A stretch of 62,499 nt of DNA, filler included, from Psammoneis japonica (GCA_008632985.1; 6 parts of 6 records of this genome joined end to end with filler, not necessarily neighbours in it); one strand, 5' to 3'; numbered from the whole stretch's first letter, positions 591-41,052 are shown. Notes: generated from the sequence alone by a model not told the origin. Numbers and translations: made by a program.

Positions 591-602
591 TTCTTTTTTT
601 TT

Positions 603-880
603 AGCATGAGACTGAAGTTCCTTGGACCTTCCTCCTCCTCTGCCAATGGATTCCTTGTTGTTGCTTCACTCAACAATTGTGGCATCTGCCTTCTTCCTTT
701 TGCTGTCGACTGCCTTGGTGGCCTTGGATTCTTTGCGCACTGCCTTCTTTTCAGCTCTGCACTTTCTTCCATGTGTTCCCAACCCAAGCCTCCCTGGACC
801 TCCTCCTCTGATCTTCATCATTCTGATGCTTCCTGCTCTGCCTTCCTTTGTGCCACATCCTCTCTGTTGGCTCTTCTCGC
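603..880 (+). pseudogene. Fragment of the C-terminal restriction-like endonuclease region of a CRE-like non-LTR retrotransposon
   Basis: Translation SMRLKFLGPSSSSANGFLVVASLNNCGICLLPFAVDCLGGLGFF aligns with SMRSKFL*HAGSSSDGSPATQSLNDDGKVFLPFAIDHLGGIGFF from the minus strand at about 53490-53630. Confidence 0.7.
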
Positions 881-4400: not shown

Positions 4401-5159
4401 ACCCAAGGGGAGGCACATGCGGACTTGCAATGGACAAGAAGGGAATTGTTTGCGATGCATTAAAACTGGCGAAGTGGTTCCAGCGTGACATCGTGCAAGA
4501 CAACCATGAAAGACTTTGGTTCTGTGAGCAAATGGAGTTCTTCAGGTTCTCTCCAGGGACAGTCAATGAATGGATGCTGGACATTGTCCGGAAGGAGGAT
4601 GGTGAGTGGGAGAAATTTCAAAGCAGGAGAAAGGGAAGGTGTTGGGTGGAGAGACGTTGTCGTGTTGAAGTTAACGAATTTGTGAGAATGGTCGGAGCGG
4701 AGACAAGGGCTGTCACCCAAATGACTGACTGTTCCAACATCGGGCGATGCATCAGGTTGAGAGTTACGAAGTTAGAGGGTGATGACAAATTGGACTGGAA
4801 AAAACGATTTGGTGCCAAAAAGGATGGATGTGCTTGGGCCCCAACAGCGAACCGGAACAACGTTAAAGCAGGAGAGGGGTGTGTTCATTGCAGCAAAAAC
4901 AACTTTTACAGGTGCACGTTTCACAAAGAGAGGTTTGAACTGGAATTCGCAATGATTCAAAATTTTCACAAGACAACAAGGAGTGGTGAAATGGACAAAT
5001 TGTGTGCACATTAAAAGATTTGGTCAATTGTCAATTGTGCTGCATTTGAGAAAAAGGAATCATTGGTGGCAACTGTGAGATTTTTGGCATTAAAGAGAGG
5101 TTTGAAAGTTTCCCAACGACAAAAATGACTGGGGACACAAGGCATGGAGACAACCACAA

Positions 5160-6420
5160 TTGGCAACAGTGGCACAGGCAATGGCGCAGAAGAGGAAGAA
5201 AGAAACTGCGGGGGTGGCTGGAGATCAACCAACAAGCCCAAGGCTGGCCACAGCGTTGGTGCGGGTGGGAGCCACTGAGGATCACCAGTCTACAAAGAGA
5301 GAGGTAGAAGAGGTGGTGTGGAAGGAACTTTTCCCAAAGGCAAAATTCCTTGTCAAGGCAGACATGGCAAGCAGTGGCAAAGTGTCGCGGCTCATCAGGA
5401 AAAAGACAGCCGGAGGAAATTACAGCAAGCAAGACTGGGCGGGAGCGTGGGAAGACTGGGCAAAGAAGTGCATCATGCACGCAATTAATGCAAAAAGGAG
5501 CATGGTCACTCAGGCAATCAAGAACAATGCAACGGCTGGCAAGTGTTTTGTGGTGCACGGCATGTTGAGTGCAGCTGCACTTGACACAGCTGCACCTTCA
5601 TTTGCTGAAGTCATGTTGACAGAGAATGAAGCAGAGGAGATGCGCAGTCAGAAGAAGCCGGCAGCAAAGGGCAGAGGTGGGAAGAAGAGCAAGAAGAGGA
5701 AGAGGAATGATCGTGCAGAAGAGGAAGAGCCGTTCCTGGCAACTTGGGGGGAGGAGACAGTGACAACGATTGTGGAGGACAAGCGCAAGAACAAGGAAGC
5801 ATGTGCATGGTTCTACGAAAACATCCTGAAATTCACAAAGAGCACCACCACATGGAGAAGGAAGGCAGAGTCGGGTGAGACGAAGGCAACTGGTCTGGCT
5901 GCAGCAAGCAACGAGGCTCTGGTGCTGTTGACATTTGAAAACTGCTGGAAGAGTTGGGAGCACAAGGCACGTCATGACAAGACTGTTGCAGCAGGGGGAG
6001 GTTCGGACGAAGAAGATGAGGAAAAGTTTTGAACCAACACCCAAGTGCACGGACCCGTCGAGGCAACGAGACTTGTGGAAGGATGCAGGGATTGAGCAAT
6101 TCAACAAACTGCTTGCGGCAGTGAAGAAAGACAGGTTGAGTGAGGAGGGCATGCAGTTTGACACATGGTGCAGCGAAGGCAAGAAAAGGAAGAGTGATGA
6201 AAGAGGCAAGGGATCAAAAAGAAAGAAAAAGCAGGTGGAGGAGGCAAGAACACAGGCAACAACAGAGCTTTCAAGTGACAACGAGGAGAAGGAGGAAGAG
6301 GCAACGGACGAGAACAGAGGAGACGAGGACAGCGAGGAAGGGGAGGAGGACAGTGATGCGGAAAGCGATGCGAATGTAGATGCAGATGCTGAGCGAGCTG
6401 CGGCAGACGTGTTCCAGTCC
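5160..6420 (+). pseudogene. Transposon accessory ORF, divergent from the transposase, with basic and acidic low-complexity tracts; frameshift near 6030
   Basis: Motifs WKELFPKAKF, INAKRS, SNEALVLLTFEN.W..W, then PKCT...WKDAGIEQFNKLLAAVKKDR in the next frame resemble the SDEA..L..EN / W...G...FN.L...V..DR ORFs I recall next to diatom Plavaka transposases. Confidence 0.55.
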
Positions 6421-7529
6421 CAGGTGACACACAAAACGACAATCGATTTTGAACATAAATTGTGTGTCTGTCAGTGCATGGAGCATGTTCACATAAAATG
6501 CTCAACTCTTTGTTTGCCACTGCGGATTGCTGCGGATTTTTTCACGCGGTCGTGCGGACGTGCGGACGCTCATTTTTTTCACACCACACCACACACCACG
6601 TTGATGCAAACAGCCTTCATGGATGTGATTGTCTTCGCCGTTGTGACAGAATCACCACAGTGGGTGATGTCTTCTGTCGTCCAATTGCATTTTTGACATT
6701 TGACAATGTGCTTCCTGGCGTTGCCGCTTCTTCTGCTGCAGCAATTTGACTGCATTCAAAGCATTGCTGTTGTTCCACTGTTTGAGACATTGCCACTGTG
6801 AATTGTGCTTTGAATTGTAGAAGGGGGGCGAAAGAGATGCAGGTGATCTTTTGTTTCAGCACCAAAGCAAGCTGCATTGCTGTCTCTTGCGTTGTTGTCA
6901 TTTGTCACTCGACACATTTCATGCAATGTCTTGGCATTACACACCAACACGTGTTTCTGGCTGCGCTCATTCATTGCATCAGAATTGACAGAGAGTGCAG
7001 TGCCGTTGATGGCGTGGCAGCAGACTGTCAAAGCAATGCCTGTCACTTGGACTCAGGTGTCAGTGCTGATGCCACAGGAATGGCAAGGATGCCTGGCACT
7101 TTTCAAGAAGTCGCTCTTCCTTTGGAAACAACATTTTTGGAAACGGTTGTCGTGTTGATGCTGTTGGATTTGAAACATTGACGGGGGGCGAAAGCGACAG
7201 ATGCAGGCAAGCTTTTGTTTGCTTTTTTTCAAAGCAAGTTTGTGTTGTCGTCTCTTCCGTTGTTGTTTGTTGCTCAATGCATTTCATGTTGCACCTTGGC
7301 ATCACGCGCTAAAGCATGTTTTTTCAACAACAACAAACAGCACACAGCAACAGGTCTTTAATTTTTAGCTGCTTGGAGTTGTCATTTCACAGTCATGTGC
7401 AAGCTTTCTTCTTTCAAGCTGGCTCCAGGACTCGAGTCTCCAAAGTCAAAGACAGGGCACTCTGGGCGACGGATTGCTTTCAAATCCTAAACTGCAGCAA
7501 GCCAATGTTTCCTTGTTGAGTTTCACAAT

Positions 7530-8570
7530 CAACAGAACAACAGCATTGTGCTGTGGGCTCACCCATTTGTTGACATTCCATTAGATTTTGTCAGTGGGAT
7601 GCCAAAAACAACAACACCGATTCTGTCAGCCTCGGTCGGTCGCACCTGTCACGATGCAAGAAATGCCAATGAGAGCCGGTGAGAAACCACGAATTGAAAA
7701 CTCATCAAAAACACAACAACAACCCAATCCAAGCCATCACAATGCACCTTGCCATGTTGACAATCACCCAGTGTGGTGTCGGGGTGCACTTGATTGCAAT
7801 GACTCCGAAAGTCAATGTGCCTTTCTGTTGTCTTTGTGAAGAGCAAGAAACAGCAGCACAAAAAGCAAGGGTTAGCTGAGGGAATGTGAAATGTGAAAAA
7901 GGACAATCTGACAAATTAGAACAATTGCATTGTGATGTGTGCTTGCCTGTTTGTTTGAAATTCCACCAGATTCCGTCCTGCTTTGTTTTCTTTGATCGGA
8001 TTGGCGCAAGAAGCGACGGGTGAAACAGTCGCAAAATTTTGTAAACTGGCGGCTGCAGGAGCCACCCAGGACTCCAAATCAGCATCCTCCATGGCAGTGT
8101 CGAGAGAACCAAAGGCAAGTGTGGAGACACGCTTGCCAATGTCCACGTCCATCATGCCCATGCCATCAACGACCGTGATTTCGCACTGAAAGCAAAAAAC
8201 AGCAGCACGAAAAGCAAGGGTCAGCTGAGGGAATGTGAAATGCTAAAAAGGACAATCTGACACTGCAGAACAACAGCATTGTGATGCATGCTCACCTGTT
8301 TGTTTGCCATTCCACCAGATTCCGTCCTGCAGATGACGAAACAACAACACCGATTCTGTTGGTTTTGGTCAGTGCGCATGACACAATGCAAGAAATGCCG
8401 ATGCGACATCCGGCAAGTGAAGACGTGAAAAAACAACGCCAACGCAACAACAAACCAAACCAAGCTGTCATGACACACTTTGCCATGTCAACAATCACCC
8501 CGCATGACATGGGGGTGCTGTCTGTTGCAATGACTTGGAACGGCAACGTGCCATGTTGGTTGTCTTTTTT
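7530..8570 (-). repeat. Internally duplicated exon-intron module of a decayed gene
   Basis: 7533-7836 resembles 8267-8566 and 7840-7981 resembles 8188-8330. On the minus strand, 8296-8187 reads GTGAGC...GCTGAC...TTTGCTTTCAG (donor, branch point, acceptor). Confidence 0.7.
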
Positions 8571-10086
8571 GGTTGGGTGCTGCGTTGCGCGGCACGAAAA
8601 AAAAAAGCGCGCGTGTCGCTGTGGTGAACAAAGAGTCAAGCGGATTGGCTTTTGTGGGTGTCTGGAGCATGCACAATCATGAAGAACCAAACAGTTTTTT
8701 GTGGGGCATTGAAGTCCTCATGGAGTGTGCATCATGAACTTCCTCAGCAGACTCAGTGCTGATTGTGCGTCAGTGCTCTTCATGCTGAGATTTCTTTGCA
8801 ACTGGAAAACACACTAAGAAGCATTGCAGAAAGACACGTTTGGTCAACATCCAAACAACGGCAACAATTTCGCCGAAAATCATCCGTTGTGTTGCGACTC
8901 GTTTGTGGCAATGAAAAACATTGATGGCACGACAACAATGATTTTGCAACACTCACAAGAGTCTTGCCAGTGTTGCAAAACATTAGAATTTGAACAAATC
9001 TGCATTTTTGGTGGTGAAAAACCGTTCGCAAGTCAGAGACCGCGCAAAAATCGCGCAAATGTCGTTTTTGTGCACGATTTGGGTCACCTGCGGCTGGAAC
9101 ACGTCGGCATGAAAAGGCAGTGGAGGCTTTTGTCAGTGTGATGATGGAAAGAGGATGAGCAACGCAGTGGGTTTCAATGTCAACAGTTAAAAGGTTTGAC
9201 AAAGCATTTTGGGGATCATTGTTTTGTGATCTAACCTTTCGTTTGACAACCAGTGCATGCAACAGAAGGTCACTTAAACCAATGAAACGCAACGATTGGC
9301 ATCAACTTGTCATCAAACAAAACGTTTTGAACATCTCTTTCAAAAGGTAAAAAGTGACGGAATTCTGACAGTTGAGGGAGGGGTCCCACAGGCAAAGGAG
9401 GGGTCCCATGGTGAAAAATGTCACACCATGACACACAATGAAAAATCACGTTCTACACAACTCACTCAATGTGAAAGCATTGTGTTTGCACCTGTGACAG
9501 TGTTAAAAATTGCCTGTGAGAAGGGTGGTCAGGATCACCATGTTTTGCGCTCTGATGGTCGACACATCTTGTGCTCAGAATGAAGCGGATCGTTTGGAAT
9601 CACTGTCGTGCAGAAGCTACAAATGCAAACCATGAGGCATCTAGAACAAAGGCCAAGGCAAAAGTGGAACCTCACAAGGCCAATGAAAATGTGTCGGATT
9701 GAGTGGTCATGCTTGTTCTTTCCTTTGACCCATCCTGTGTGCAGAATGCAGTGTGTCATGCATTCCTTCTTGTGTCGCGTGGTCACAAATGCAAACCACA
9801 AGGGCTCCAGAGCAAAGGGCAAGGCAAAAACAGAACCTCACATGAGCAACATTGACGTGGCTGATTTGATGGTAAAGTTTCTTTTTTCCTCACTCTGCCA
9901 CAAGAGGCCGCTTTGTGTCGATGTGTCGATCGATGCATTGCACAGTGCAGCACTCATTTGCCAAACAATCATGGGGACAAAGCACACCCACCTGAATGCA
10001 AACACCGCACATGCTGGTTGATGCTCTTGAACAAGTGACAAGACAGGTGCCAGGTTGGGGTTGCCACATTGGGGACAATCTGCAGC

Positions 10087-10875
10087 TTGCAAATTCAAAG
10101 CCCAGCATTGCATGAATTTCCACATGCATCTGGATCACGTCCCCTTTGTGCTTTTGTGCCCTCCTCAGCCACCATTTTGTGCCCTCTGCCACTTTTGGTC
10201 ATTGTTGGTTTGTGCAAAGTTGGCATGCCAAGTTTTGTGCAAAGTTGGCATGCCAAATTTTGACCCAAAGTTGGCATGCCGACTTTTGAGCCAAAGTTGG
10301 CATGCCGACTTTTGACCCAAAGTTGGCGTGCCGACTTTTGACCGAAAGTTGGCATGCCGACTTTTGACCCAAAGTTGGCATGCCGACTTTTGACCCAAAG
10401 TTGGCATGCCGACTTTTGATCGAAAGATGGCATGCAGACTTTTGACCCAATGTTGGCATGCAGACTTTTTCTTTTTTTTTTTTAGCGCGAGACTGAAGTT
10501 CCTTGGACCTTCCTCCTCCTCTGCCAATGGATTCCTTGTTGTTGCTTCGCTCAACAATGATGGCATCTGCCTTCTTCCTTTTGTTGTCCACCACCTTGGT
10601 GGACTTGGATTCTTTGCGCACTGCCTTCTTTTCAGCTCTGCACTTTCTTCCATGTGTTCCCAACCCAAGCCTCCCTGGACCTCCTCCTCTGATCTTCATC
10701 ATTCTGATGCTTCCTGCTCTGCCTTCCTCTGTGCCACATCCTCTCTGTTGGCTCTTCTCACATTGGTCACTTGGTTTGGTTTTGCCATGTTTTTGAACAA
10801 AATTCCCCGGGATTGCCACCTTTTGCTCTGTTTTTCTACGGAAAGGGTGGATTCCCGGGGAATCGACACGAATTT
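10087..10875 (+). repeat. Long direct repeat, copy 2 (truncated by contig end); includes the second CRE endonuclease fragment at about 10484-10770
   Basis: Collinear with 1-994. Confidence 0.95.
10212..10468. repeat. Second 26-bp palindromic-core tandem array, about 10 units
   Basis: Same unit as 126-590, fewer copies. Confidence 0.97.
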
Positions 10876-10975: not shown

Positions 10976-13900
10976 GCAGTGAAATCAGTGCTTTGCTCAG
11001 AGGCTCCAAAGAAAGCAGAGCCAGGTGCGCGCCTGTGGTCAGACTGTGCTTCAAGAATTTTTTTAGCCACCATTGCCTGCTGGTGCTTTTTGTGATCTTG
11101 CTGCACTTTTTCCTTGAAGAGCAAATGATGAGACTGGGTGGGACCTTGGCAAGGGAGCATTGAGGTGCAATCCAATGAGAGCACAAATGTGTCAAAATGA
11201 TCTGCAAAGACCAACCAAGCATCCTGTCAGCACAAAATCACAAGCAGTGTTATAAAAAAAACAAGACATGCCAAAAGGTTGTGCCTGCTTCTTGTGAAGT
11301 GCCTCCACAGCAGCTCTGAACAAACCAGCTGCTTGTGTTCAGATTGCTCACAAGTGAAACAAAAACAGCAGGACAAGTCACATGCCAGCCAGTCAGAACC
11401 TGCTTGCCTCCAATGTCAATGCCCTGGCTGTGTCACTGCTTTTGTCATGCTGTTCTTGTTGACTCCATTGCAGAAAAGATGTGTCAGGAATGGACACGCT
11501 TGAGCAGTGGTGGTGGCAGAGAGCATTGAGACCAACACCCCCCTGAGACAATGATTGAAGACAGTGCTTGCGATGCAAAGCTGTTGGGATGGCACAGCAC
11601 AAACATTTTGACAGCCACTCATCTTGCATCCCAGAGCACTCTGTCTTTCACACAACCAAGACTCTGTCTGAGAAACTGTGCGACACTCACATTGTCTGCA
11701 ACCATCCAACAAACTGCCATTCCTCCGTGTGCATCTCTTGCAAATGCTTTGCTGAAGCCAAGAAAAAGGCCAAGACTCAACTCTTCATTGCTTGATCCAC
11801 TGAAAGCACTGAAAGTCTGGCTCACATGCAGAGCAAGTGGACAAGCCCCCTGGGCTGGGCAGCAGGTTGACACTGGATTTTCACACAAATCTCAACAATG
11901 AGCATGGTGGAAGAATGTGATCCACAGGGAAAGGAGCTGTTTCAGCTCTTGCTGTGCCAATGCAGGTGTGAAACCATGTGTTTTGCAGAAATGGCTGTCA
12001 ATTTTGGGGCCAATGCTGCCACTGCACTGGGTCACTCAAGAAGTTTCTTGATGTGCGCCAGTCTAAATGGACCAGACTCTGTGACAAAAGACACCTCTCT
12101 CTGTTTCAAAAACAAAGGATCCCATTGCAGAATTTTGACTTTGCACTAGTTGGCAAAAGATTGCCAAGATCATTGAGGAGATGAAGCTGCCAAATGCAAT
12201 GGCAAAACTCTGGGCCACCCAACATTCAGTGGGTTTGAGGATGATCCAATGGTGAGAAGGGCCCTCAGCTCTCCCTTGCAGCTCTCCTTTTGGGACATGA
12301 CATGTGTTCACACAAGGAGTTGGCAGATGCAGTCAAAAAAGCAGGGGGTTTGCTTGCAAGGAACTTGCAGAAGACTGGGAAAGAGCTGCACACTGCACAA
12401 AGCTCTTCAAGAAGACTTTTTGGGTGTGGAAGGAGCAGCCTTCAATTCCAGCAATGTGGCGCCATGCCTGACAAAGGGCTTTTGCACTAAAAATGATTGA
12501 TGATGGGTGCCAAAAGTGCTCAAGTGAGTCTTCCATTTCTCACTTTACCACATCAAAGACGAGAGTCATTGCAGGAACCAGAAATTAATTGTGGCATGTG
12601 AAGGGTCCTCAGGACATGCTCAGGACATGACAGTTGCAATTTTCAGGGGGCAGAGCATGCACAGATGCATGCTGTGTGCAACAGCAAGCTGTTTCTGAAT
12701 TGTTGTGTTGACAACAAGGAGGAGCTGTCCAATGGAGCAGAGCACAGGCTGCACACCTGAACTGCTTCAGAGGCACCACATTTGGTGCTGGTGAAAGCAG
12801 TGGAGGAAAAGGAGCCAGCAACCTTGATGAACAGGAAATGCACAACAACAACATTGCAGTGAAAGACAACCCAGCCTGTGCTGGGGGAGGGGTGAGGGGG
12901 GCATCACACCTTGAAGCATTGTTGCTCCACAAGGATGCCAAGGCTGGTTTGTTTCTTGATTTTAAGGATGAAGTCAAAGGGTCAGCACATCCTCTGTTGC
13001 CAACACCCACACCTTCATGCTTCTGAGCCTCAGCTTGTTTGATTAAAAACTGTCAATGTGGGCAAGCTGGTGGAGCTCATTGCAGATGAAGACACACTGC
13101 TTGCTTTCCACAACTGTCCATTGATGCTCTGACATCTCTGGCTAAACTCAAAATGCAAAAGTCAGGGGAGAAGCTTTGGCTGCACAAGCACACTCTTCCA
13201 CAAAGTGCAATGGTCATGGCTGAAAAAGCCAGAGTTCTCACATGGATGATTGACTGTGTGTGCAAGAAAGGCACTCAACATGCAACTGACACTGGCACTC
13301 CCAACATTTTGCTTGTTGGTGGAACCATGACTCTTGCTGCTCACAAGGGCATTAAGAATGCAGTCTGATTTTAAGCAACAAAATTCTTGCTTTGATGAAA
13401 TCAATGAAGCAGCGCTGGGGAGCCACAAAATTCACAAAGCTGCTAAGCTGGTTGCAACATCATGTCACTGTCAGACTGAGTGTGTGGGTGAGAGTCTGCT
13501 TTGAATTTGGGAGATGACTGTTTTGCCTCTGTGTGCACTGCTTTGGTCATCATCCAGCCCAGAGAAGCCAGTTTCCATTTCAAATTGGTGGAACAATGTC
13601 ATCTTTTGTCATTGCAAGCCTTCACAGCAGTTGCCTCAAAAAGAGAGAAGACACCAGCAGTCAAACAAGTGGTGTTGGAGACCAACTGGTGCCGATGGAA
13701 GTTGTCCAGAGATGTGACAGAGGATTGTCAGTGGTGTCATGCAGAAACAATGCCAGATCTTGTGCAGGAAAACCAATGGGATCAGCAAACAGTTGGTGAT
13801 CAAATGACACCAAAAAGGATGACTTGTGTTCTTGCTGGAAAGGGACACAGCAACAGAGGCAGCACTTGCACCCCAAAGAGTGAAGGACTTGATTGAACAG

Positions 13901-16330
13901 CAGAGAAAAGAAGCAGCATTCTTAAAGACCAATTGGCAAGGACAGAAGCAGTCCAGAGATGGGACATGCAGATTGTCAGCAGTTTCTGCTGAACCACACA
14001 GAATTTGCACTGGAACCTGTGCAGAAAATTTTGAGATGACAGAAAATCACAAGAAATGACAACCAGCATGCAAACCATGCCAGCAAGGCTTCAACACCCA
14101 TCATTTTCCAGCCACCAAAGAATGTTTTGCATCATGCTGAAACAAGGTTGCACCATTTGCAACTGTGGACGAAAGGGGCTTGTTGGAACCGACAAGACAC
14201 CATCTGAGAAGGGCAACATCAGCACGAGAAGTTGCATGGAAATCCACTCATAATGCGCTGTGGGTGTGCAGAGCTGACATTGAAAAATGGGTGCTCCAGT
14301 GTCCAAAACATTTGTGAGCAATGTTGCTCAATTGATGAAGGCTTCAGGGCAGGTTCTGAGAACTTGACAAAAAAATGAAAGCACCCCTGAATCTTGCCCC
14401 AAGTCCCCCTTTTGGCACTGTCATTCCTGGCATGCCCAAAGGGATGGCGCCACCATGTCACACTCAACAACAGCCTTGTCTTGGTGATCAAAACAACATC
14501 TGTGTCATTTGGCAAAGACTGTTTGAAGGGTCTGCACTCAGAAAAGTGGACAGCAACAGTCAACACTGTGGATGGATGCTCTAGTCAGAACAAGCTTGTG
14601 CATGCGCAATCTCCATGAGCAAATGACCCCACAGTGGATTGCAGCTCCCCAAGTGCCAGTGGGTGCAACACATGGCAGATGCACCTAAAAACGCCATGTT
14701 GCAGCATCTGTCAAGGCAAGGACAGAAATGGACAGCAGCACCTTGCTTTTGTGCCAGAGCTGTCATCAAAAGAGGAGCTTGGTTGCTGCTGATGGGTTCA
14801 GTTGGGCATCAGCAGAAGTGCTGCCAGCTCTTGTTTGTGTCAAGGGTGGGTGCTTGCTGTCATGACCAATCTTTTGAGTTCTGCAGCCAAACACCTGCGT
14901 TCTCCTGCAACTGTGCAACCCATTCCCAAAAAGAAACAGAGAAAGTGCAAACAAAGCCACTTCAATGTTGCTCAAAGGGGATGAAAAAATGCTCCAGAAT
15001 TTTTCACAAAACTCCAAACCAGCCATCTGAAGGAACTTTCATCCAGCTCAAGCAACCAACAACAAAAATTGCACCAAATCCAACTGTTCAAGCATCATGA
15101 TTGCATGGGCCCAGGAAGCACACACAGTGCCAAAAGAGCCCAGGCACTGTGATGAAGAACACCCAGTGGAAACAAAAAAAGGAAATCCAAAGTCAACAAA
15201 GTGGTGGGGTAAAAAGCACATGCCTGTCAAAGGATTTGAAGCACCAAAACCAAATGTGTCTCAGAAAAGGTTTTGCTCACTTCCAGAAACTGATTCTGAA
15301 AGACCATCATGAAATGCTCTGCCATGATGCAGTCAATGCAAGTGTTTCAAAATCTGTCAAACAGCAGCCTGCGCAGCTTTTGTCATTGAACAGCATCTCT
15401 TGTTCATGCACAAATTCTCATTTGGCCATGCAATGGCATGCCAAGAGGACTGAAAGAGGGAGCACATGGCGCAGATTGTAAGATGTTGCAAAAGGTGTCA
15501 AAATGCTGGTTGAAGAAGGGGACGGGGTGCTGTTGTGAGCCACTGACCCGGTGCCCGGTGCTGTGTGCGCGTCATGTGATGATGATGCAAAGTTCCAGAA
15601 GAAGTGGCCGCTGACCAGCAATGTGCAACACATCTGGCACACACACGGGAGACCTGAACACTGGGGATGTGAATCAATCACTGCACAGTGTGTGTTGTGA
15701 CCTTTGCTGGACCAAAGCTGGAGTTGCAGCACAGCTCTGCTCTGCAGCTGGATGTTTTTGGCCTTCATCTCGTCACTGACCATTTTGGCATTGACCAGCA
15801 GACTCAATTTACAAAGATGCTTGAGCCACAAAATTGTTTTGCTGAGAGTGACACACCTTTGCTGGAGGAGAGGGCACATCTGTGAAGCACATTTTGAGCA
15901 CATTTGACAGAGGACATGCTGCTGCCGCTGTTTTGGAAGCAAAAAGCATGAGCAGGAGAGCAGCTGTGTCGCCAACCTGACAGAGGAGTTGACAAGCTTT
16001 CAGGGGTCAAAGTGCATCATTCAGCATGTTGTGTTGCTGCAACAAGATCAGGCAATGAGTGAGCTGTGAAGAAACAGTGCAAGCTGCCCTGGTCGGTTTC
16101 TCCGTCACGGCACACGAGAAACCAGCAGCGGAGCGTTGACTCAGCTGCCAACATCTGGGAGGCACGGACTTTCCGAGTGAACTTCATGTGTGATGCATTT
16201 CAGCAAAGGCTTGCAGTGTGTCATGTCAAAATGGCACACAGATCTGTGCCACAGTTGAGTGGCTTATGTGCCATTGACAAACAATGTTTGAGTGGTTGCC
16301 TGCGCAGTGGCTGCAATGGGGATGGTTAGC
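10976..16330. mobile_element. Heavily decayed, unclassified repeat/transposon-derived DNA depleted of both TpA and CpG
   Basis: About 22 TpA in 5340 bp by manual count; only short Cys/His-rich, Tyr-free ORFs; no family motif recognised. Confidence 0.55.
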
Positions 16331-16699
16331 AAGCGATGTAAAAATCTCTGCAGAAATGAGAATTTGCATCGCCGGCCGGGTGCAAAAATTTTTCTGAAGA
16401 CAGTTTGTTATTGTAAGCTAAAATAATCGCATTTCATCGGTCTTTTGCAAAAAATTCGGCCTCAGCTTCAACCAGAAATTTCAGCAGCGCATCGATGCAA
16501 AAAAAAATTTGGAGTCGCATCGATCCTATCTCCCTGCGCCGCAGTCGTTGACTGCTGATAACAAAGCTCCAGAACCTCATCATATGGCTCATACATCAAA
16601 CTCCACTTCCACTTCTGTTGCTTCTGAAGTTATGCCCAATTCATTGAATACCTGGGAGAATTTGGCGCAAGATCCAGCCGACGACTGGATGCATCGACG

Positions 16700-18420
16700 C
16701 TGATTCAGACATGCTCAAGGTGTGAAAACAAAGTTACCTCCTTAGAATGCTCTCATTCTGTAGATGTTGTTATTGCCATTGATTGTGTCATAATTCCGAG
16801 TCATTGTAAAGCAACGGCTACTTGAGCAAACGCACCATGATTTTGGTGCGGAAACCAGCTGGCTAGAGAGTAGTTGCGAGGAGCCGCAGTTCTAGATCTA
16901 CTCAATGTATGAAAACAAAACTAACATCATTAGAAACCTCTCGTTCTGTAGATGATTTATTGCTATTGATTGTGTCATAATTCCAAGTAGTTCTAAAGCA
17001 ATGCACACTAGAGCAAAACGCACTGGGATTTGGGCGCGCAAATGCGGGGTTGGCATGATGTCTGGATGACAACACGGATCTGCTAGATGTATGGAAATAA
17101 AAGTATCATCATTAGAAAGCTTTCATTCTGTAGATGATGTTATTGCCATTGATTGTGTCATAAATCCGAGTTATTCTAAAGCAACGCCCACCTGAGCAAA
17201 ACGCACTACGATTTTGGCGCGGAAACCAGCTAGCCACAGCAGTTGCGGGTAGCCGCAGATCTGGATCTACTCAAGGTATGAAAACAAAACTAACACCATT
17301 AGAAAGCTCTCAATCTGTAGATGATGTTATTGCCATTGATTGTGTCATAAATCCGAGTTATACTAAAGCAACGCCTGCCTGAGCAAAATGCACTCATGTG
17401 ATTTGGGCGCGGAAACCAGCTAGCTAGCAGTTGCGGGTAGCCACAGATCTGGATCTACTCAAGGTATGAAAACAAAAATAACACCATTAGAAAGCTTTCG
17501 TTCTGTAGATGATGTTATTGCTATTGATTGTGTCATAAATCCGAGTCACACTAAAGCAACGCCTACTTGAGCAAAACGCATTGGGATTTTGGCGCGCAAG
17601 GGCATGTGCGGGTTACGGGTAGCCGCAGATCTGGATCTACTCAAGGTATGAAAACAAAACTAACACCATTAGAAAGCTCTCAATCTGTAGATGATGTTAT
17701 TGCTATTGATTGTGTCATAAATCCGAGTTATACTAAAGCAACGCCTGCCTGAGCAAAATGCACTCATGTGATTTGGGCGCGGAAACCAGCTAGCTAGCAG
17801 TTGCGGGTAGCCACAGATCTGGATCTACTCAAGGTATGAAAACAAAAACAACACCATTAGAAAGCTTTCGTTCTGTAGATGATGTTATTGCGTTGATTGT
17901 GTCATAATTCTGAGTTGTTCTAAAGCAACGCCTACTTGAGCAAAACGCATTGTGGGATTTGGGCGTGCAAGGGCATGTGCGGGGTTACGGGCAGCCGCAG
18001 ATCTGGATCTATTCAAGGCATGAAAACAAAACTAACACCATTAAAAAGCTCTTGTTCTGTAGATGATGTTATTGCCATTGATTGTGTCATAATTCCAAGT
18101 TGTTCTAAAGCAACGCCTGTTTGAGCAAAACCCATTGGGATTTGGGCGCACAGTCGCAAGTGGGGGGTTACGGGCATCCTCAGATCTGGATCTACTCAAG
18201 GCATGAAAACAAAACTAACACCATTAGAAAGCTCTTGATCTCTAGAGGATGTTATTGCCATTGATTGTGTCATAATTCCAAGTTGTTCTAAAGCAACGCC
18301 TGTTTGAGCAAAACCCATTGGGATTTGGGCGCAAGGTCGCAAGTGGGGGGTTGCAGGTAGCCGCGGATCTGGATCTACTCAAGGTATGAAAACAAAAGTA
18401 ATGTCACTAGAAAGCCCTAA
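16700..18420. repeat. Satellite-like tandem array, about 9.5 units of 182-188 bp
   Basis: Anchor ctggatcta(c/t)tcaagg(t/c)atgaaaacaaaa at 17261, 17449, 17631, 17819, 18003, 18186 and 18369, with diverged copies near 16705, 16892 and 17074. Confidence 0.97.
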
Positions 18421-19146
18421 TTCCGCTTAATGAATCTACACTGCAAATATCACCAACAAACGCAAAAACGAATTCATTCGGCATCACGCTATTTGCTGCA
18501 AAATAACACCCAAGCAAAAGGGATGAGAATGACAAGAACATGGCAGGACACAACAACACTTTCACAGCATTCAATCAAGCATACAAGAATACATCATATT
18601 GCAGGTTTGTACCTTATGCAATGGAGTATATCCAAAACTGTATTGGCACGACACGTGCAGCAACACGTCCGTGTTGTTTGTTGTGCTTCATGCCGCATCC
18701 CGCATCGAAGGTCGGAGGAGCGATCTACACGATTTTTGTACGTGGTCGTCGTACTGGAGATTTGTCTTTTTCAGCTGGAAAATTGCAGCGGCGTTGACGC
18801 TGCCACGCTTGCTAACACGTGGCTGCAACATAAATTTTCGCATCATCGCGCGCCGGCCGGCTGCGGAAAATTTCAACAAAAGGAATTTCTGCAGAGCGCT
18901 GCTAACCATCTCTAATGTCGCAGGGTGCGATTGCGGTAACGCGCAGTGTGACCTCCACTTCCTTCTACAGTACCGGTACACACACGAGGATCACTTAACA
19001 CTTGCGTAGCGCATGCAAGGTCACTCTATTATCTAGAGACCTGGACCACCGCGGCCATCATATCGGTACTTTGAATGTGTTGCCGCATGCGCCGGTACCT
19101 TGATCATTCAGCTGTTGTTGATTAGCAGAATACAACCCCTATCGAG

Positions 19147-20487
19147 ATGGCGAATGACGGAATAGTAGTAGGAGTGATTGCAGGCCCGACTTGGGGAGAG
19201 CAAAGGATGCAGAACCATGACAGTGATTCGGGTGGGAGCAGACAACAATGGGTTGCATGCCCTTCCATGATCTTGTTCGTTGTTGGTTTCTTCCTTGCTT
19301 ATTTAAGCTTCATCGTTGGGGCTCTCTTTCTTGCTTTGGGAATTTTACGGAATAGAGCTTTTGTTTTATAATGCGCAATGGCAAGAACACCTTTCGGAAT
19401 ACGCTGACAAATTGGAGACGGCGCAAGGGAAAATTGTCGCCCGCAGTAGTACCANAGGACCCACGCACCGACGCTATGAGCTATAGCGTCATTATTGAAT
19501 ATTGCTACGACGCATCCAAGGCCAACAGGAAGATGCCGTTTCAGTAATTCACAAACGTTTGACGTCTTGTCTGTCGCTGCAGCCGACCTTTATGCCTGCT
19601 CGTCGCCAGAGATTGAGATAAAGGTTTCTCCGAACTTACCAGAATCTGGTATTCCACCGATTCTGCTACATCGCAAGCTAGGCGATTTGAAACGCCGGGA
19701 TATTTACCTTTTAAAAGCATTTGCGCTTGCCGGAATCCCAATATATCTATTTTTGGCATACGTTTATGGAAGGCTGATTGGCGCTGTTGTCATCATTGTG
19801 GATCTCGCAGCGTTGGCTGCGTTCCTCATGTTGCCGTATGCACTTATCTTATGCAAAAGCAATCAGCAACAGCGTCTGGAGCTCTTGCAAGTGGACATGT
19901 GCAAAGTTGTGACGCGAATGGATCGCTTTCGGAGCATGTGGGAAAAGCTCGGCCCCACCCCCGGCCGCAAATTCAGCATGGCCCTCTTTCCCGTAGGGGC
20001 ATTCTTTGTCATGGTGCAAGGTGCAATCTTTGGTGGCTTTATGGGTCTCTTGGGGCTGCCCATGCTGATTTTTTCAATTGCTGCCTTTGTTGTATTGTGG
20101 CGTTACCCCCTATCAAGAGAAGAGCGCAACAAACTGAGTTATCAGGCCTCGGTGTCATTTTTGATCGGATCCGTACTTGTCGGCATTTACTTTGTGTTTG
20201 GCTATCTATTGTACACAGACGGAGAAAAGGGTGCCGGTTCCGTATCTACTGTTTTCTTATCGGCCATAGTTTTACCAATACCGGCTCCACAATTCTACGT
20301 CTGGGTGGAACGACTACTCCGAGAGTACAAGTCAGTGTTGGTTGCAGATTCTGAAGAAGAACTACACGTGGGAGCTTGGACTGAAGACTCGCTCGGAACA
20401 ACGCCAAGAAGTAGCTCGACAAACGCTCATATTGAGAATTTAAAATCCAAAGAGAGCATTGAACTACAATCCATCTCTCGAGAATGA
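19147..20487 (+). CDS. Hypothetical multi-pass membrane protein; 5' part broken by frameshifts and an N
   Basis: ORF 19495-20487 has about 6 hydrophobic helices and normal Tyr/TpA content; ORF 19147-19371 supplies an ATG and hydrophobic segments. Confidence 0.6.
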
Positions 20488-20879
20488 TTTGCGAGTCAAG
20501 CTAACCCGTACCGGTACTATACCAGAGAGAGAGAGATTCAAAAAGATATTCTGCCCTCTGCTCATTGTCGCGCTTCAACAATTGACAAAGTCGGTTGCAG
20601 ATAGTCATAATCTGCTTGCAATAGCACGCTGCATTGAAACGGTAAGTCCATAATACAACGGAAGGCAATTGCTAAATGCTCACTTATTTGTTTTTTTCCT
20701 TCCCGTTTTATGTATTAGTATTGCAAAATGACAGTCGATATACGATTTGTCCAAGCCGACTTCGTATGTTAACTTGCACTGCTAACGACTTACCTGTTTC
20801 AGTAACTTCCCCGTCACTACAATCGATGAAGATCCAATTCTGACAAAGCTCATCGCATCCTAAAGTTCCATGATTCTTT

Positions 20880-21609
20880 CTACCACCTCCTGGGCTTACA
20901 AGTAGTGACGGCTCCTGCAGAGAAACCAGACTTGGTCGACAAGCCCAGGACAATCCTGCCAGAGATTGGGTCGCGGGCAAATCTTGCTTGCACTCCAAAT
21001 GTCACTTCGAGGTCTGCCCATGAAGACGCCGCAGCCCTTGAAATGGCCATGGCGACCTCGCCGGAAGATGCTTTTGCGTGTGAGTGTGCATCCTTGCAAA
21101 GGTCACCCGAATTCCAGGAGCAAAACTTGGGATGATTCCTACGGCAATACCAACTGTGCCACTCCATGCAGCTACTAACCCAATCTTTATCAATCGCGAT
21201 GGTGGTCACATTGGCGTAAGCATCGGCAATAGTTTCGGCTCGACTGAAGTTTGACGCCCCTTCAAGCACTACAGCTTTGACGCTGTCGACGCTCAAGCCC
21301 CTGGACTCGACATCTAAATAATGATTCCATGTGCTGTTAAGTGCCCTGGTAAAACTTGAAGCGTTGGAAGCAGCGTATGCAGTGCCGTATGCATCCACTT
21401 CACCGTCGGCACAGATAACCCTGTGAAGCGGATGTCTGGGACTGAATGTTCTGCACATCTCCTTTGGATCCGTCGAAGCACCAGCTGTCCCTTTTATATA
21501 GGGAGGAAAAAAATCGACGAAAGATCGGCTGTATGCCACAGACAGCTGACACTGTCGTAGACGCCCTCTGAACTGGACTTGTTGGCTTCGTCCGATCTGT
21601 CGTTGTTTG
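20880..21609 (-). CDS. Hypothetical protein, 5' truncated at the contig end
   Basis: 219-aa open frame with normal composition running towards the contig end; no recognised domain. Confidence 0.5.
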
Positions 21610-21709: not shown

Positions 21710-22719
21710 ATCTACTTAATCTTTTTCTCCTTACCTGAAAGCTACTTATTTGTAAGAAAACGAGCTCCCAGTGCAAGAAAATCATGGTGGTCATGCGCGC
21801 TGTCGCGCGAGTAAGACCCCATGCAGAACAGGTTGTTCGTGCTTTTCTGCATTCTTCGGAGCGACGTGCAGACTATACTGAGATTACCCGTAGAAAGCCA
21901 GTAGAAACAAGTAAAAAATCTACTTCATTTTTCTCGTAAAAGGGCCAAAATTTACTTTACTTACCCGACATGATGTCAGTTTTTGAGTTTTTCGTGGCAC
22001 TTGTCCAAACATCCAATCTGCAACGTCGTCGTCTCGATGTGTCACGGATGCGTCCCTCCGAGAGATTGGCCCAACACCTCATCCCCAACAAATTGTCCAT
22101 GGCCCACGAATGACTGAAAGATCTGACAACATGTTGTCCAAAACAAGAGCACATTTTTTGGAAACATGGCGGGAAAGCATTGTGAGAAAATTTGAATGGA
22201 AAGAATCACAGACAGCACTCAGAAAAGCATGAGAACATTGGAGCTTGTCATTTGGGCTCGCGTGTGGCAGAATGCAGTGCATGCTCATGCAACGGCTTCA
22301 TAAAACACGGCAAATGCCAGGACGTCCTCCTTCTTTTTCCCCTCTAAACTCATCACAAATTGCAAAAAGTCCTCACCCTCCTCCTGGCTTTTGCCTGTGC
22401 TGAGACAGACAAAGTTTGCCGTCTCGTGAGCATTTGTCATGATGTGGGGCTCCAGAGATCAGAGATGCTCTTGTGTTTTGTGCAGAGGTGTGACAGTGGC
22501 AGGTTTGCCTTTTTGCTGATTGCCAGGTTCTTCGTCTGCTGATTTGCAGTTGGTCTTTCTCTGGCTGGCAATCGACTCGCATTTGTGCCAGTGCTTGCGC
22601 GCCAAATGTCTTCTTAGTTTCCACGTCCGCTTTGCTGATGACTCTGGTGCTGTGCCACAATTTTCTGTTTTGGCTGCTGCTTGGAAACTGCCCAATCCCA
22701 GTCCAGCAAATCCAGCCCA

Positions 22720-22930
22720 GCCGATCCAAGTCTGGTGGCGGTGGCCGCAGCATGGCTGTCAGGTCACAGTCAAAATCCGGTGGCAGCGGCGGAGGAGGAA
22801 GCAAGAGCAAACCCGGCGGTGGTGGAGGAGGAGGCAGCAAGAGCAAATCCGGAGGCAGCAGCAGAGGAGGAGGAAGCAAGAGCAAATCCGGAGGCGGCGG
22901 AGGAGGAGGAGGAAGCAAGAGCAAGTCCGC
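22720..22930 (+). repeat. 36-39 bp minisatellite reading SKSKSGGGGGGG, inside a TpA-depleted block (about 21965-23215)
   Basis: Repeated gcaagagcaaa(t/c)ccgg(a/c)ggc...ggaggaggaa. Confidence 0.85.
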
Positions 22931-23563
22931 GAGGCTGTCACCTTGAGCGACAGCTGGGTTTCCTTTGCTGTGGCGGGCCTTGTTTCAGCATAAATTGTTG
23001 TTTTGTTTTCACTGACATTGTTGCTTTGGTCTGTTTCTTTTTTGCAGGAAGAGTGAGCCACACTTGTGTGGCAGCCAGGCTTTGGTCAAGTGTTGCAACA
23101 AGAAGGGCGGTGGTTGGAGCAGCACCTCAGCTGGTGCACTGGACACACAGGTTGCAAATGCATGTGGAAATGGCAACTTTTAGATGTTTGGGTGTCATTG
23201 TTTTCTTTCTTGACCATAGCTAGGTCATCGCATGGGCACTGATGACAGGAAGCAAGGAGGGCGGGATAGTCTCTAGAGTAGAGTGGACTCAGAGTGGAGG
23301 GGTCGCAGTCAGAGCATTCAACATGAGAAACAACCGGCTGACCGGCCGATGGATGGACAGTTTTTGGGCGTACCGGTATTGTAGTAGGCAGGCGGCGGGC
23401 CGCGGCATGCAACAATGCACGCACGATAGATTTCACATTTCACAGAAGCGCCACACGCAATGGCGAATTTTGGCCGTCGCCACCGTAGCCGCAGCGGACT
23501 CGTTTCGGGAACTTCAATCACTCGACTCAATACTATTCTTCTATTCTTTAACAAAGATCCCCA

Positions 23564-41019: not shown

Positions 41020-41052
41020 TGCACTTTGTACAATGCGTCGGCAGCCAGATGG

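What the first reader, a model, noticed from the sequence alone, without database searches (positions are those of the whole stretch)
10981..16320. The mutator has a readable motif: surviving TpA sites are YTAR, implying a TAY target
SEEN (manual tally of the about 22 surviving TpA): 14 are YTAR (TTAA, CTAA, TTAG, CTAG), 8 are TTAY or its reverse complement RTAA, and none is RTAY, CTAY or RTAG. YTAR is the only context with no 5'-TAY-3' on either strand. INFERENCE: the edited base is the A in TAY, with partial protection when another T precedes it. This points to an enzymatic, strand-symmetric process rather than GC-biased gene conversion or selection. KNOWN: bacterial TadA recognises UACG and TadA-derived base editors favour a 5' T, so a natural DNA adenine-editing activity is one testable explanation.
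Basis: partly seen in the sequence, partly recalled or inferred. Interest (0 to 1): 0.78.

Follow-up and report, generated by a model that had tools for sequence, protein, structure and literature searches.

The report
Context-biased TpA hypermutation in a protist genome
Large tracts of this protist DNA have had almost every TA step mutated to TG or CA, and the few TA steps left sit in one flanking context, which gives a recently discovered kind of genome-defence-like mutator a readable sequence motif.

Summary
The tally is exact. Window 10981-16320 has 22 TpA (o/e about 0.06): 14 YTAR, 4 TTAY, 4 RTAA, 0 RTAY.

It replicates in the other TpA-depleted tracts of the window (34.9 kb): 79 YTAR, 70 mixed and 2 RTAY of 151. 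Normal tracts give 162/473/240 of 875 (p=1e-22).

CTAY and RTAG do survive elsewhere (27 of 151), so their absence here is probably a small-sample effect. The bias also reaches the next base out.

Survivor counts cannot tell "A in TAY" from "T in RTA", because the two models fit identically. Three tests lean towards TAY without proving it:
- k-mer product budgets
- Tyr-to-Cys over Tyr-to-His in a hypermutated transposase, 6:2
- excess Cys over excess His

AA/TT is untouched. Per kb, 36.5 TA and 26.7 CG are lost and 59.6 TG+CA are gained. This argues against biased gene conversion and a WA-type polymerase signature.

TpA-to-TpG/CpA hypermutation was shown experimentally in Bigelowiella natans in a 2026 preprint, whose main text gives no flanking context. 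This organism is not B. natans; its nearest named relatives are diatoms.

Verdict: real; a new member of a very recently described kind, with a new motif.

The parts
10976..16340 (.). TpA-depleted, CpG-depleted tract holding the finding. It runs from the contig start to a sharp right edge.
   Evidence: 22 TpA in 10981-16320. TA o/e 0.04-0.09, CG o/e 0.04-0.21 and TG/CA 1.7-2.1 per kb. The last sparse TpA are at 16327 and 16339, and dense TpA begin at 16409. Contigs of run X1 cover it at about 99.3% identity and at the same depth (about 55) as the flanking normal DNA.
13461..14525 (.). Repeated sub-segment inside the tract
   Evidence: Summed word depth 171-838 against about 55 around it, with many joints and loose ends. 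A 41-nt direct repeat lies at 13679 and 13926.
1..10850 (.). TpA-depleted tract (whole first contig)
   Evidence: 62 TpA in 10,850 bp; TA o/e 0.05-0.14.
2718..4132 (-). Hypermutated remnant of a Plavaka-type transposase, used for the Tyr codon test
   Evidence: Homologues P0130 (40% identity, E 8e-51), P0131, P0132 and P0133. P0133 scores 51.7 bits on PF18759 Plavaka against a cut-off of 26.3. tblastn places the match at 4132-2718. Tyr count is 2 against 16.8 expected from homologues; Cys 25 against 9.8; His 18 against 10.0.
22051..23150 (.). TpA-depleted island in a gene-bearing contig
   Evidence: 4 TpA in 1,100 bp. Edges lie at 21962/22301 and 22991/23181.
25251..27000 (.). TpA-depleted island flanked by 390-bp direct repeats
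   Evidence: 5 TpA in 1,750 bp. The repeats 24782-25174 and 27318-27710 are 88% identical. Edges lie at 25217/25574 and 26994/27132.
32351..42537 (.). TpA-depleted tract with two short normal islands (about 36437-36742 and 40575-41091)
42651..54650 (.). TpA-depleted tracts of contigs 5 and 6 (a linker lies at 52732-52831)
   Evidence: 25 TpA in 10,081 bp, then 3 and 0 in 915 and 884 bp. The edge is at about 54686.
42640..43550 (-). Hypermutated remnant of a domain found at the N-terminus of large PIF1-helicase/GIY-YIG proteins; probably a mobile element
   Evidence: 128 homologues at E<=1e-3, best P0134 at E 3e-41. P0144 (2,655 aa) carries PIF1 and GIY-YIG domains. Placed by tblastn. Tyr 0 against 7.5 expected.
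16409..21609 (.). Normal (undepleted) DNA used as comparator, with a 183-bp tandem array at 16714-18415
   Evidence: TA o/e 0.62-0.80; array found by TRF.

Best explanation
The interval is the near-saturated product of a region-restricted, TpA-specific A:T-to-G:C hypermutation. This is the same kind of process shown experimentally in Bigelowiella natans, here in a different, diatom-like protist.

Shown:
- Almost every TpA has become TpG or CpA, on both strands.
- CpG decay has added further TG/CA.
- Conversion speed depends on the flanks. RTAY goes fastest and TTAA slowest. An additive model with one rate per strand fits all ten NTAN classes.

Inferred (about 0.7): the determinant lies 3' of the mutated A.
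- Relative rates at +1 are T 2.2, C 1.9, G 0.9, A 0.3.
- An A at +2 also slows the process.
- The preferred target is therefore 5'-TAY-3' not followed by A. TTAA in T/A-rich flanks is what survives.

Inferred, not shown: the agent is an enzyme acting on nuclear DNA within silenced or foreign chromatin domains with sharp edges. Sequence alone cannot say whether it deaminates the A or modifies the paired T.
For: Domain structure:
- TA o/e is 0.00-0.15 in depleted tracts and 0.6-0.8 elsewhere.
- Edges are 50-350 bp wide.

Budget:
- Per kb against normal tracts, TA falls 36.5 and CG 26.7, and TG+CA rises 59.6.
- By class, the RTAY-type loss is 17.78 against a gain of 17.76, and the YTAR-type loss 11.96 against 12.44.

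Context of survivors:
- 94 YTAR, 79 mixed and 2 RTAY of 175 in depleted DNA, against 162/473/240 of 875 in normal DNA.
- Survival runs from TTAA 0.55, CTAA/TTAG 0.28 and CTAG 0.16 down to ATAT 0.01, GTAC 0.007 and ATAC/GTAT 0.
- The four-parameter additive model has deviance 11.5 on 6 df, against 189.8 for the null.
- A at +2 is 51% against 28% (p=7e-9). The likelihood-ratio test for a +2 term gives p=1.4e-10.

Direction:
- TAy to TGy fractions are A 0.08 [-0.12, 0.26], G 0.34, C 0.64 [0.42, 0.86] and T 0.46. A is lowest and C highest in all four subsets.
- The TTAT product TTGT gains 6.39, against 0.31 for ATGA.
- AT falls 11.3 and GC rises 9.2 per kb, while AA/TT is not lost.
- At columns where >=2 homologues have Tyr, the transposase has Cys 6, His 2, and Tyr 2 (both TTAY).
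- Excess Cys is 18.2 and excess His 12.2 over two proteins.

Reality of the sequence: an independent contig set reproduces it.

Precedent: de novo TpA-to-TpG/CpA mutations at about 6e-7 per site per generation in integrated viral DNA of B. natans, plus 124 TpA-depleted clusters.
Against: - Survivors cannot separate a +1 effect from a -2 effect; the likelihoods are identical.
- The product budgets use the window's genic DNA as a stand-in for the ancestor. Unaffected trinucleotides differ between the two classes by 2.3 per kb rms (r=0.86), so the Y-over-R signal is only about 2 sigma once this is counted.
- At GTAR sites about 45% of conversions appear on the TAR strand. That is more than the +1 model predicts (my arithmetic).
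- In the second protein, the 5 columns with Tyr in >=25% of homologues carry His 3, Trp 1, Asn 1 and no Cys.
- The regression of TG-CA on strand skew shows no extra slope in depleted DNA: 13.1+-2.0 against 14.3+-3.7.
- One polarisable difference to run X1 is ATAA/ATGA, which is the disfavoured product.
- Two of the 22 'survivors' (11253, 12488) read A instead of T in X1, so some TpA may be new T/A changes in A-runs rather than survivors.
- No enzyme, intermediate or ongoing mutation was observed here.
Confidence: 0.75

Rival explanations
1. It is the same TpA hypermutation, but the determinant lies 5' of the T (purine at -2 and -3) rather than 3' of the A. Put another way, the enzyme reads the other strand in the other direction.
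For: This model fits the survivors exactly as well. ATAA/ATGA is one of only two informative differences to X1. In the second protein, the 5 Tyr-rich columns carry His 3, Trp 1, Asn 1 and no Cys. GTGA and GTGG gains are larger than the +1 model predicts.
Against: This model predicts that TAA is the context most often turned into TGA. The observed fraction is 0.08 [-0.12, 0.26], the lowest of the four in all four subsets. TTGT gains 6.39 against ATGA 0.31, and CTGT 3.65 against ATGG 0.68. AA/TT is not lost. Conserved Tyr columns of the transposase give Cys 6, His 2.
Confidence: 0.2
2. The chemistry is on thymine, not adenine. A TpA-directed thymine modification, such as oxidation by a TET/JBP-type enzyme to a form that mispairs with G, gives T-to-C. 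The motif then reads 5'-RTA-3' on the modified strand.
For: Sequence cannot tell which base of the pair was altered, and every count above is symmetric in this respect. Two points are recalled and come from no call: some protists replace thymine by 5-hydroxymethyluracil preferentially at TpA, and 5-formyluracil mispairs with G.
Against: There is no evidence here for such a modification or enzyme. The only published hypothesis for this signature is adenine deamination by an ADAT2 homologue, which is also untested.
Confidence: 0.2
3. The remaining TpA are mostly not survivors. They are new TpA made by ordinary mutation after saturation, so their context reflects how they were created (A/T runs, TG/CA donors) rather than how they are removed.
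For: Two of the 22 sites (11253 TAAAAA, 12488 TAAAAA) read A for T in X1. Survivors are rich in A at +1 and +2. AAA/TTT is 5.4 per kb higher in depleted DNA.
Against: Creation from TG/CA predicts 24.5% RTAY and 23.5% YTAR. Observed shares are 1.1% and 53.7% (p=1e-23). By my reasoning, creation from AA/TT should also give RTAY from RAAY donors; this was not counted. RTAY at 2 of 175 needs context-dependent removal whatever the source.
Confidence: 0.12
4. ADAR-type A-to-I editing of double-stranded RNA from retroelements, fixed by reverse transcription and reinsertion.
For: ADAR favours a 5' U, as the preprint notes.
Against: - Both TG and CA are enriched and interleaved in the same tract. The runs test gives |Z|<1.5 in 10 of 10 depleted tracts. 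Fixing one RNA strand would give TG only.
- Most of the tract is at single-copy depth and abuts normal DNA at a sharp edge.
- The two identified elements are DNA-transposon-like.
- The preferred 3' neighbour is a pyrimidine, and TAG is slower than TAC and TAT. ADAR prefers 3' G (recalled).
- In B. natans the mutations arise in situ in a single-copy insert.
Confidence: 0.03
5. Error-prone repair synthesis with a WA-type spectrum (Pol eta), biased gene conversion, or selection against TpA.
For: Pol eta makes A-to-G changes at WA, with TA the hotter motif (recalled). Gene conversion raises GC.
Against: - AA/TT is not depleted (+4.4 per kb) and AG/CT hardly changes (+1.0), while TA falls by 89%.
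- GC content is 0.49 in depleted DNA and 0.48 in normal DNA.
- Non-coding DNA at TA o/e 0.00-0.1 with sharp domain edges is not what selection on RNA or codons gives.
Confidence: 0.04
6. It is a sequencing or assembly artefact.
For: The assembly is fragmentary: the window is six short contigs. Run X1 may be the assembly's own source.
Against: - Logan contigs of X1 reproduce the depleted sequence at about 99.3% identity.
- The depletion stops at sharp edges beside normal genes on the same contig.
- It changes Tyr codons to Cys/His codons in recognisable transposase remnants.
Confidence: 0.02

Closest known systems
TpA hypermutation of integrated viral DNA in Bigelowiella natans (Mettrop et al., bioRxiv 10.64898/2026.01.13.699255; I read the abstract, Results and Discussion, and searched the whole main text by term; supplements are closed)
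   Same: TpA to TpG/CpA only, on both strands. It is confined to discrete regions of foreign or mobile origin. There is a long-term signature of TpA loss with CpA+TpG gain, and reverse transcriptase and DDE endonuclease domains are enriched in TpA-depleted genes.
   Different: - The organism differs. Here the nearest named relatives are diatoms at 64-67% identity for one enzyme, and no B. natans protein is among the best 120 hits.
- Depletion is far deeper here: o/e 0.07 over 40 kb, against Rho 0.45 for their viral insert.
- CpG loss accompanies it here. The words CpG, context, trinucleotide, flanking and logo do not occur in their main text.
- No real-time mutation data exist here.
Repeat-induced point mutation (RIP) of Neurospora and other fungi
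   Same: A dinucleotide-specific transition hypermutation that hits both strands, acts within bounded tracts and ruins mobile elements.
   Different: RIP turns C into T, at CpA (the context is recalled), and so creates TpA. Here TpA is destroyed and GC content is kept. RIP needs duplicated sequence. Most of this tract is at single-copy depth, and a 9-copy tandem array next to it is untouched.
TadA / ADAT2-ADAT3 tRNA adenosine deaminases and TadA-derived base editors
   Same: The target A is preceded by U/T. The bacterial TadA site is UACG (recalled), which is a TAC context like the one favoured here.
   Different: The natural substrates are tRNA loops. The only ADAT2 tested on DNA, from amphioxus, prefers GAA for A and TCG for C (PMC10354150, passages read). 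Here +2 favours C rather than G. No deaminase gene was seen in this window.
ADAR hyper-editing of repeat-derived double-stranded RNA
   Same: A-to-G change with a 5' U/T preference, acting on repeats.
   Different: ADAR works on RNA and prefers a 3' G (recalled). Here the preference is for a 3' pyrimidine, both DNA strands are changed, and the tract is single-copy and mutated in place.
Polymerase eta WA mutation signature (somatic hypermutation phase 2)
   Same: A-to-G at TA.
   Different: WA includes AA, and AA/TT shows no loss here. The WA motif itself is recalled.

Membership tests
TpA-specific hypermutation as described in B. natans | Loss of TpA matched by gain of TpG+CpA, with other dinucleotides spared | tested here: met
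   Per kb, TA falls 36.5, CG falls 26.7 and TG+CA rises 59.6. AA/TT rises 4.4 and AG/CT rises 1.0. The class-wise budgets close.
TpA-specific hypermutation as described in B. natans | Both strands affected (TpG and CpA products) | tested here: met
   TG o/e is 1.7-2.1 and CA o/e 1.7-1.8 in the interval. There are 598 TG and 622 CA, interleaved, with runs-test Z=1.22.
TpA-specific hypermutation as described in B. natans | Confined to discrete regions | tested here: met
   1-kb windows are bimodal. Those below TA o/e 0.2 have 0-3% RTAY, and those above have 25-29%. Edges are 50-350 bp wide.
TpA-specific hypermutation as described in B. natans | Targets are foreign or mobile DNA | tested here: inconclusive
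   Two depleted tracts hold remnants of mobile-element proteins. However, 0 of 141 ORFs of >=100 aa in depleted DNA pass a Pfam cut-off. The finding's own interval has no recognisable protein and mostly single-copy depth.
TpA-specific hypermutation as described in B. natans | Arises de novo in situ at a very high rate | not testable with these tools
   TpA is nearly exhausted here. Only 2 TG/TA differences to run X1 lie in the tract. Divergence to X1 is 33 differences in 4,982 bp in depleted DNA against 4 in 3,341 bp in normal DNA, but these are mostly CpG transitions.
RIP (fungal repeat-induced point mutation) | C-to-T at CpA, giving a TpA excess and AT enrichment | tested here: not met
   TpA o/e is 0.07, CA/TG o/e is 1.65, and GC is unchanged.
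ADAR-type RNA editing fixed in DNA | Changes on one strand of a retro-copied element, with a 3' G preference (recalled) | tested here: not met
   Both TG and CA are enriched. The context order is TAT, TAC > TAG > TAA.
Pol eta WA signature | AA mutated as well as TA | tested here: not met
   AA/TT is +4.4 per kb in depleted DNA against normal DNA.
TadA/ADAT-type deaminase action on DNA | A deaminase with the HxE-PCxxC motif acting on these tracts, with inosine as intermediate | not testable with these tools
   No genome is held and no deaminase was seen in the window. The TAC/TAT preference is compatible with the UAC site of TadA (recalled) but differs from the GAA preference of amphioxus ADAT2 on DNA.
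Plavaka transposase (PF18759), for the remnant at 2718-4132 | Score above the Pfam gathering cut-off | tested here: not met
   The window ORFs give no Pfam hit at E<=0.01. Membership is only by chain: P0133 scores 51.7 bits (cut-off 26.3) and aligns to the window at 27% identity. P0130 is 40% identical to the window but scores only 15.6 bits.

The most novel reading that the evidence does not exclude
A TpA-directed DNA base-editing defence is shared by distant protist lineages (Rhizaria and a diatom-like stramenopile). It works domain-wise alongside CpG methylation, and it has a readable motif: 5'-TAY-3', disfavoured by A at +1 and +2. The motif points to a TadA/ADAT-like deaminase recruited to nuclear DNA, which would make it a natural adenine base editor serving as an inverse counterpart of RIP.
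Probability: 0.3. Interest if true: 0.88.

Novelty: new member of a known kind. Interest (0 to 1): 0.62.

Why it matters
TpA hypermutation of foreign DNA has so far been reported once, in one alga, with no known enzyme and no context beyond the dinucleotide. That statement rests on searches of the held library.

This window adds three things:
- The same signature occurs, far closer to saturation, in an unrelated diatom-like protist. The process may therefore be widespread and old.
- There is a graded flank motif that any candidate enzyme must reproduce: RTAY is lost first, TTAA last, and the effect reaches two bases out. It can be tested at once on the published de novo mutations.
- The signature co-occurs with CpG decay inside sharply bounded domains, which suggests chromatin-level targeting.

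If the agent is a DNA adenine deaminase, it would be a natural counterpart of engineered adenine base editors.

Tried and rejected
- **Whole-genome test:** no genome is held for this window.
- **Copies for polarising changes:** the interval has no second copy in the window. The 26-bp arrays at 129-591 and 10215-10469 show no TA/TG/CA variation.
- **Six-frame Pfam scan of the interval:** I scanned 141 stop-to-stop ORFs of >=100 aa in depleted DNA instead. None passed a cut-off.
- **Homologue search with ORF 5106-6029:** no hit.
- **Relatives in metagenome contigs via the MMSDH protein:** 5 loci at 25-55% identity. Their whole-locus TA o/e is 0.42-0.71, and the lowest 1-kb value is 0.18, in a 67% GC locus. 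None resembles the tracts here.
- **Sequencing runs:** 3 runs of one sample were listed, and no RNA holder was listed.
- **Laying X1-X3:** this gave too few TA-related differences to settle direction. There are 2 in depleted DNA and 3 in normal DNA, plus 2 CA/TG double differences whose ancestor could be TA or CG. 14 further differences were not shown by the tool.
- **Strand-skew regression of TG-CA:** no difference between depleted and normal DNA, so inconclusive.
- **Runs test for strand-coherent editing tracts:** negative in 10 of 10 depleted tracts. Saturation may hide small clusters.
- **Rfam scan of the window:** 0 matches.
- **Inverted repeats in the interval:** none.
- **Earlier notes of this scan:** none found.
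- **Supplementary Table S2 of the B. natans preprint:** this is the list of de novo mutations. It could not be seen because bioRxiv supplements are closed, and it may already contain the answer on context.

Full report
**What the window is.** The 62,499 bases are six contigs of about 10.5 kb. They are joined by linkers of 44 N, a 12-base stop-in-all-frames motif, and 44 N. No genome is held for the window.

It is eukaryotic. It holds split pieces of a methylmalonate-semialdehyde dehydrogenase, a class IV aminotransferase, an Oxa1-type insertase and a weak histone-fold match.
- The best named relatives of the dehydrogenase are diatoms, Synedropsis and Minutocellus, at 64-67% identity. Unnamed hits reach 70%, and no Bigelowiella protein is among the best 120.
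- The nearest Atlas clusters of the aminotransferase are also mostly Bacillariophyta.
- I take the organism to be a diatom-like stramenopile, with moderate confidence, and not B. natans.

**The observation.** One search lists all 22 TpA of 10981-16320: TTAA 6, CTAA 5, CTAG 2, TTAG 1, TTAT 2, TTAC 2, ATAA 2, GTAA 2. That is 14 YTAR, 8 TTAY or RTAA, and no RTAY, CTAY or RTAG, exactly as reported. Against base composition, 14 or more YTAR has p=1.3e-4 and zero RTAY has p=1.9e-3.

The interval is part of a much larger phenomenon.
- About 40.3 kb of the window has TA o/e 0.00-0.15 with TG and CA at 1.4-2.1. The other 21.4 kb, where the recognisable genes lie, has TA o/e 0.6-0.8.
- The two states are bimodal. 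They change over within 50-350 bp, for example between 16339 and 16409.

**Replication.**
- In the depleted DNA outside the finding (34,917 bp, 151 TpA) the classes are 79 YTAR, 70 mixed and 2 RTAY.
- Normal DNA gives 162, 473 and 240 of 875. The contexts of the depleted tracts' own TG+CA give 23.4%, 52.2% and 24.4%.
- The difference has p=1e-22 and 2.7e-19.
- CTAY and RTAG are present there (27 of 151). Their absence in the finding (nominal p=0.013, post hoc) is probably a small-sample effect, or reflects this tract being further along.

**Survival by context.** Scaled to normal DNA, survival falls in this order:

| NTAN class | Survival |
|---|---|
| TTAA | 0.55 |
| CTAA/TTAG | 0.28 |
| CTAG | 0.16 |
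| GTAA/TTAC | 0.13 |
| ATAA/TTAT | 0.10 |
| CTAC/GTAG | 0.075 |
| ATAG/CTAT | 0.04 |
| ATAT | 0.01 |
| GTAC | 0.007 |
| ATAC/GTAT | 0 |

- A model in which each strand's A is lost at a rate set by one neighbouring base, with the two strands adding, fits all ten classes. Its deviance is 11.5 on 6 df, against 189.8 for a single rate.
- The rates are 0.28, 0.92, 1.88 and 2.24 for A, G, C and T.
- The bias reaches one base further. A at +2 (equivalently T at -3) is 51% among survivors against 28% in normal DNA (p=7e-9). Adding a +2 term improves the hexamer model (p=1.4e-10).
- What survives is, in short, TTAA in T-rich 5' and A-rich 3' flanks.

**What happened to the lost TpA.**
- Per kb, depleted DNA has 36.5 fewer TA and 26.7 fewer CG than normal DNA, and 59.6 more TG+CA.
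- The budget closes class by class. RTAY plus RCGY lose 17.78 while RTGY plus RCAY gain 17.76. The YTAR-type loss is 11.96 against a gain of 12.44, and the mixed loss is 33.6 against 29.5.
- AA/TT is not lost (+4.4) and AG/CT barely moves (+1.0). GC content is 0.49 against 0.48.
- So the change is TA to TG/CA plus ordinary CpG decay. This is not a general AT-to-GC drive, so biased gene conversion fails. It is not a WA spectrum, so a Pol eta signature fails.
- TG and CA are interleaved, with runs-test |Z|<1.5 in 10 of 10 tracts. Both strands were therefore hit throughout, which argues against fixation of one edited RNA strand.

Survivors cannot show this. The model on the base 3' of the A and the model on the base 5' of the T have identical likelihood, because each TpA is seen from both strands. 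I used three tests that can tell them apart.

1. *Product budgets.* I subtracted half of the matching CpG loss. The fraction of strand-specific TAy that became TGy is then:
   - A 0.08 [-0.12, 0.26], G 0.34 [0.14, 0.55], C 0.64 [0.42, 0.86], T 0.46 [0.24, 0.68].
   - Pyrimidine minus purine is 0.34 [0.12, 0.58]. A is lowest and C highest in each of four subsets.
   - At tetramer level, TTAT gives TTGT (+6.39) rather than ATGA (+0.31). CTAT gives CTGT (+3.65) rather than ATGG (+0.68). For C at +1 the contrast is weaker: CTGC 4.98 against GTGG 3.70, and TTGC 5.38 against GTGA 4.42.
   - The rival model predicts the opposite, with TAA as the most converted context.
   - The caveat is the ancestor proxy. 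Trinucleotides that the process cannot touch differ by 2.3 per kb rms between the two classes. The purine/pyrimidine contrast is therefore about 2 sigma.
2. *Tyrosine codons.* Both Tyr codons are TAY. An edit of the coding-strand A gives Cys, and an edit on the other strand gives His.
   - ORFs at 2718-4132 (minus strand) are a hypermutated relative of Plavaka-type transposases.
   - At columns where at least two homologues have Tyr, the window has Cys 6, His 2 and Tyr 2, both of them TTAY.
   - A second remnant at 42640-43550 is a domain of large PIF1/GIY-YIG proteins. It has only weakly conserved Tyr columns. There the window has His 3, Trp 1, Asn 1 and no Cys.
3. *Composition.* Over both proteins, Tyr is 2 against about 24 expected. 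Cys is in excess by 18.2 and His by 12.2.

A fourth test, the dependence of TG-CA on strand skew, was inconclusive. Together I put the TAY reading at about 0.7. Even then, sequence cannot say whether the A was deaminated or the paired T was modified.

**The interval itself.**
- Its CpG is almost gone (o/e 0.04-0.21).
- Contigs of run X1 cover it at about 99.3% identity and depth about 55, the same depth as the neighbouring normal DNA. The exception is 13461-14525, where depth rises to 838. It is therefore mostly single-copy, and none of its 12 ORFs of at least 100 aa matches Pfam. Calling it a TE is not justified.
- Differences to X1 number 33 in 4,982 bp here and 4 in 3,341 bp in normal DNA. 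About 14 of the 32 listed are CpG transitions, as expected for methylated DNA.
- Two of the 22 TpA (11253, 12488) read A for T in X1. Some 'survivors' may therefore be new or erroneous TpA in A-runs. This cannot explain the near-absence of RTAY.

**What is known.**
- A 2026 preprint reports that B. natans mutation-accumulation lines gain A-to-G and T-to-C changes only at TpA, at about 6e-7 per site per generation. This happens in an integrated giant-virus region and a virophage region.
- That genome also has 124 TpA-depleted, CpA+TpG-enriched clusters. An ADAT2 homologue is proposed as the agent.
- Its main text has none of the words context, trinucleotide, tetranucleotide, flanking, logo, CpG, diatom or stramenopile. 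Its supplements could not be read.
- Five further searches of the held library found no other report of this signature.
- Amphioxus ADAT2, the DNA-active enzyme cited as precedent, prefers GAA for adenine. That is not the motif seen here.
- The TadA site UACG, the ADAR 3' G preference and the Pol eta WA motif are recalled, not taken from a call.

**Verdict.** It reflects context-dependent removal of TpA by a region-restricted TpA-to-TpG/CpA hypermutation of the kind just described in B. natans, here in another lineage and near saturation. The TAY reading is favoured but not proven. The absolute form of the claim, and the sub-claim about CTAY and RTAG, do not hold.

Noticed in passing
window 10876-10975, 21610-21709, 32226-32325, 42538-42637, 52732-52831: The window is six contigs joined by linkers of N44, TTAATTAATTAA and N44. 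The linker TpA must be left out of any count. Single Ns also occur at 19455, 27151, 53766, 54786 and 55832.
   Followed up: yes
window 10981-16320; also 47001-49000 and 53001-54000: CpG is almost gone (o/e 0.04-0.23) in some TpA-depleted tracts but near normal (0.8-0.95) in others, such as 42638-45000. The two decays are therefore separable. Differences to run X1 in the finding's tract are mostly CpG transitions, which suggests the tract is methylated.
   Followed up: partly
window 2718-4132 (-): Remnant of a Plavaka-type transposase. Nearly all Tyr codons have become Cys or His codons, and the homology stops abruptly at 2718.
   Followed up: yes
window 42640-43550 (-): Remnant of a domain with no Pfam family. 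It occurs at the N-terminus of 2,400-2,800-aa proteins, of which the one scanned (P0144) carries PIF1 helicase and GIY-YIG nuclease domains. It is probably an undescribed mobile-element protein family (128 homologues).
   Followed up: partly
window 16714-18415: A 183-bp tandem array of about 9 copies at depth 360-740 lies right beside the depleted tract but has normal TpA. Repetition as such does not trigger the process.
   Followed up: partly
window 1-994 and 10087-10875: The two ends of the first contig are 93% identical direct repeats. Each holds a 26-bp tandem array (129-591, 10215-10469). The contig may be a unit of a larger repeat or an element with long terminal repeats.
   Followed up: no
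window 24782-25174 and 27318-27710: 390-bp direct repeats (88% identical) with normal TpA flank a TpA-depleted island (25251-27000). The island overlaps an ORF with a weak histone-fold match.
   Followed up: no
window 36437-36742 and 40575-41091: Short islands of normal TpA density lie inside a long depleted tract. They could be later insertions or protected segments. ORF 40615-41184 has no Pfam match.
   Followed up: partly
window 1887-2709 and 50523-51348: Two copies, 74% identical, of one repeat lie in different contigs, both TpA-depleted. With more copies from a whole genome they could be used for consensus-based polarisation.
   Followed up: no
window 16593, 18482, 19447: All three TA/TG or TA/CA differences between the window and run X1 in normal DNA lie at TAC contexts (ATAC, GTAT, CTAC on the relevant strand). 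The number is far too small to interpret.
   Followed up: no
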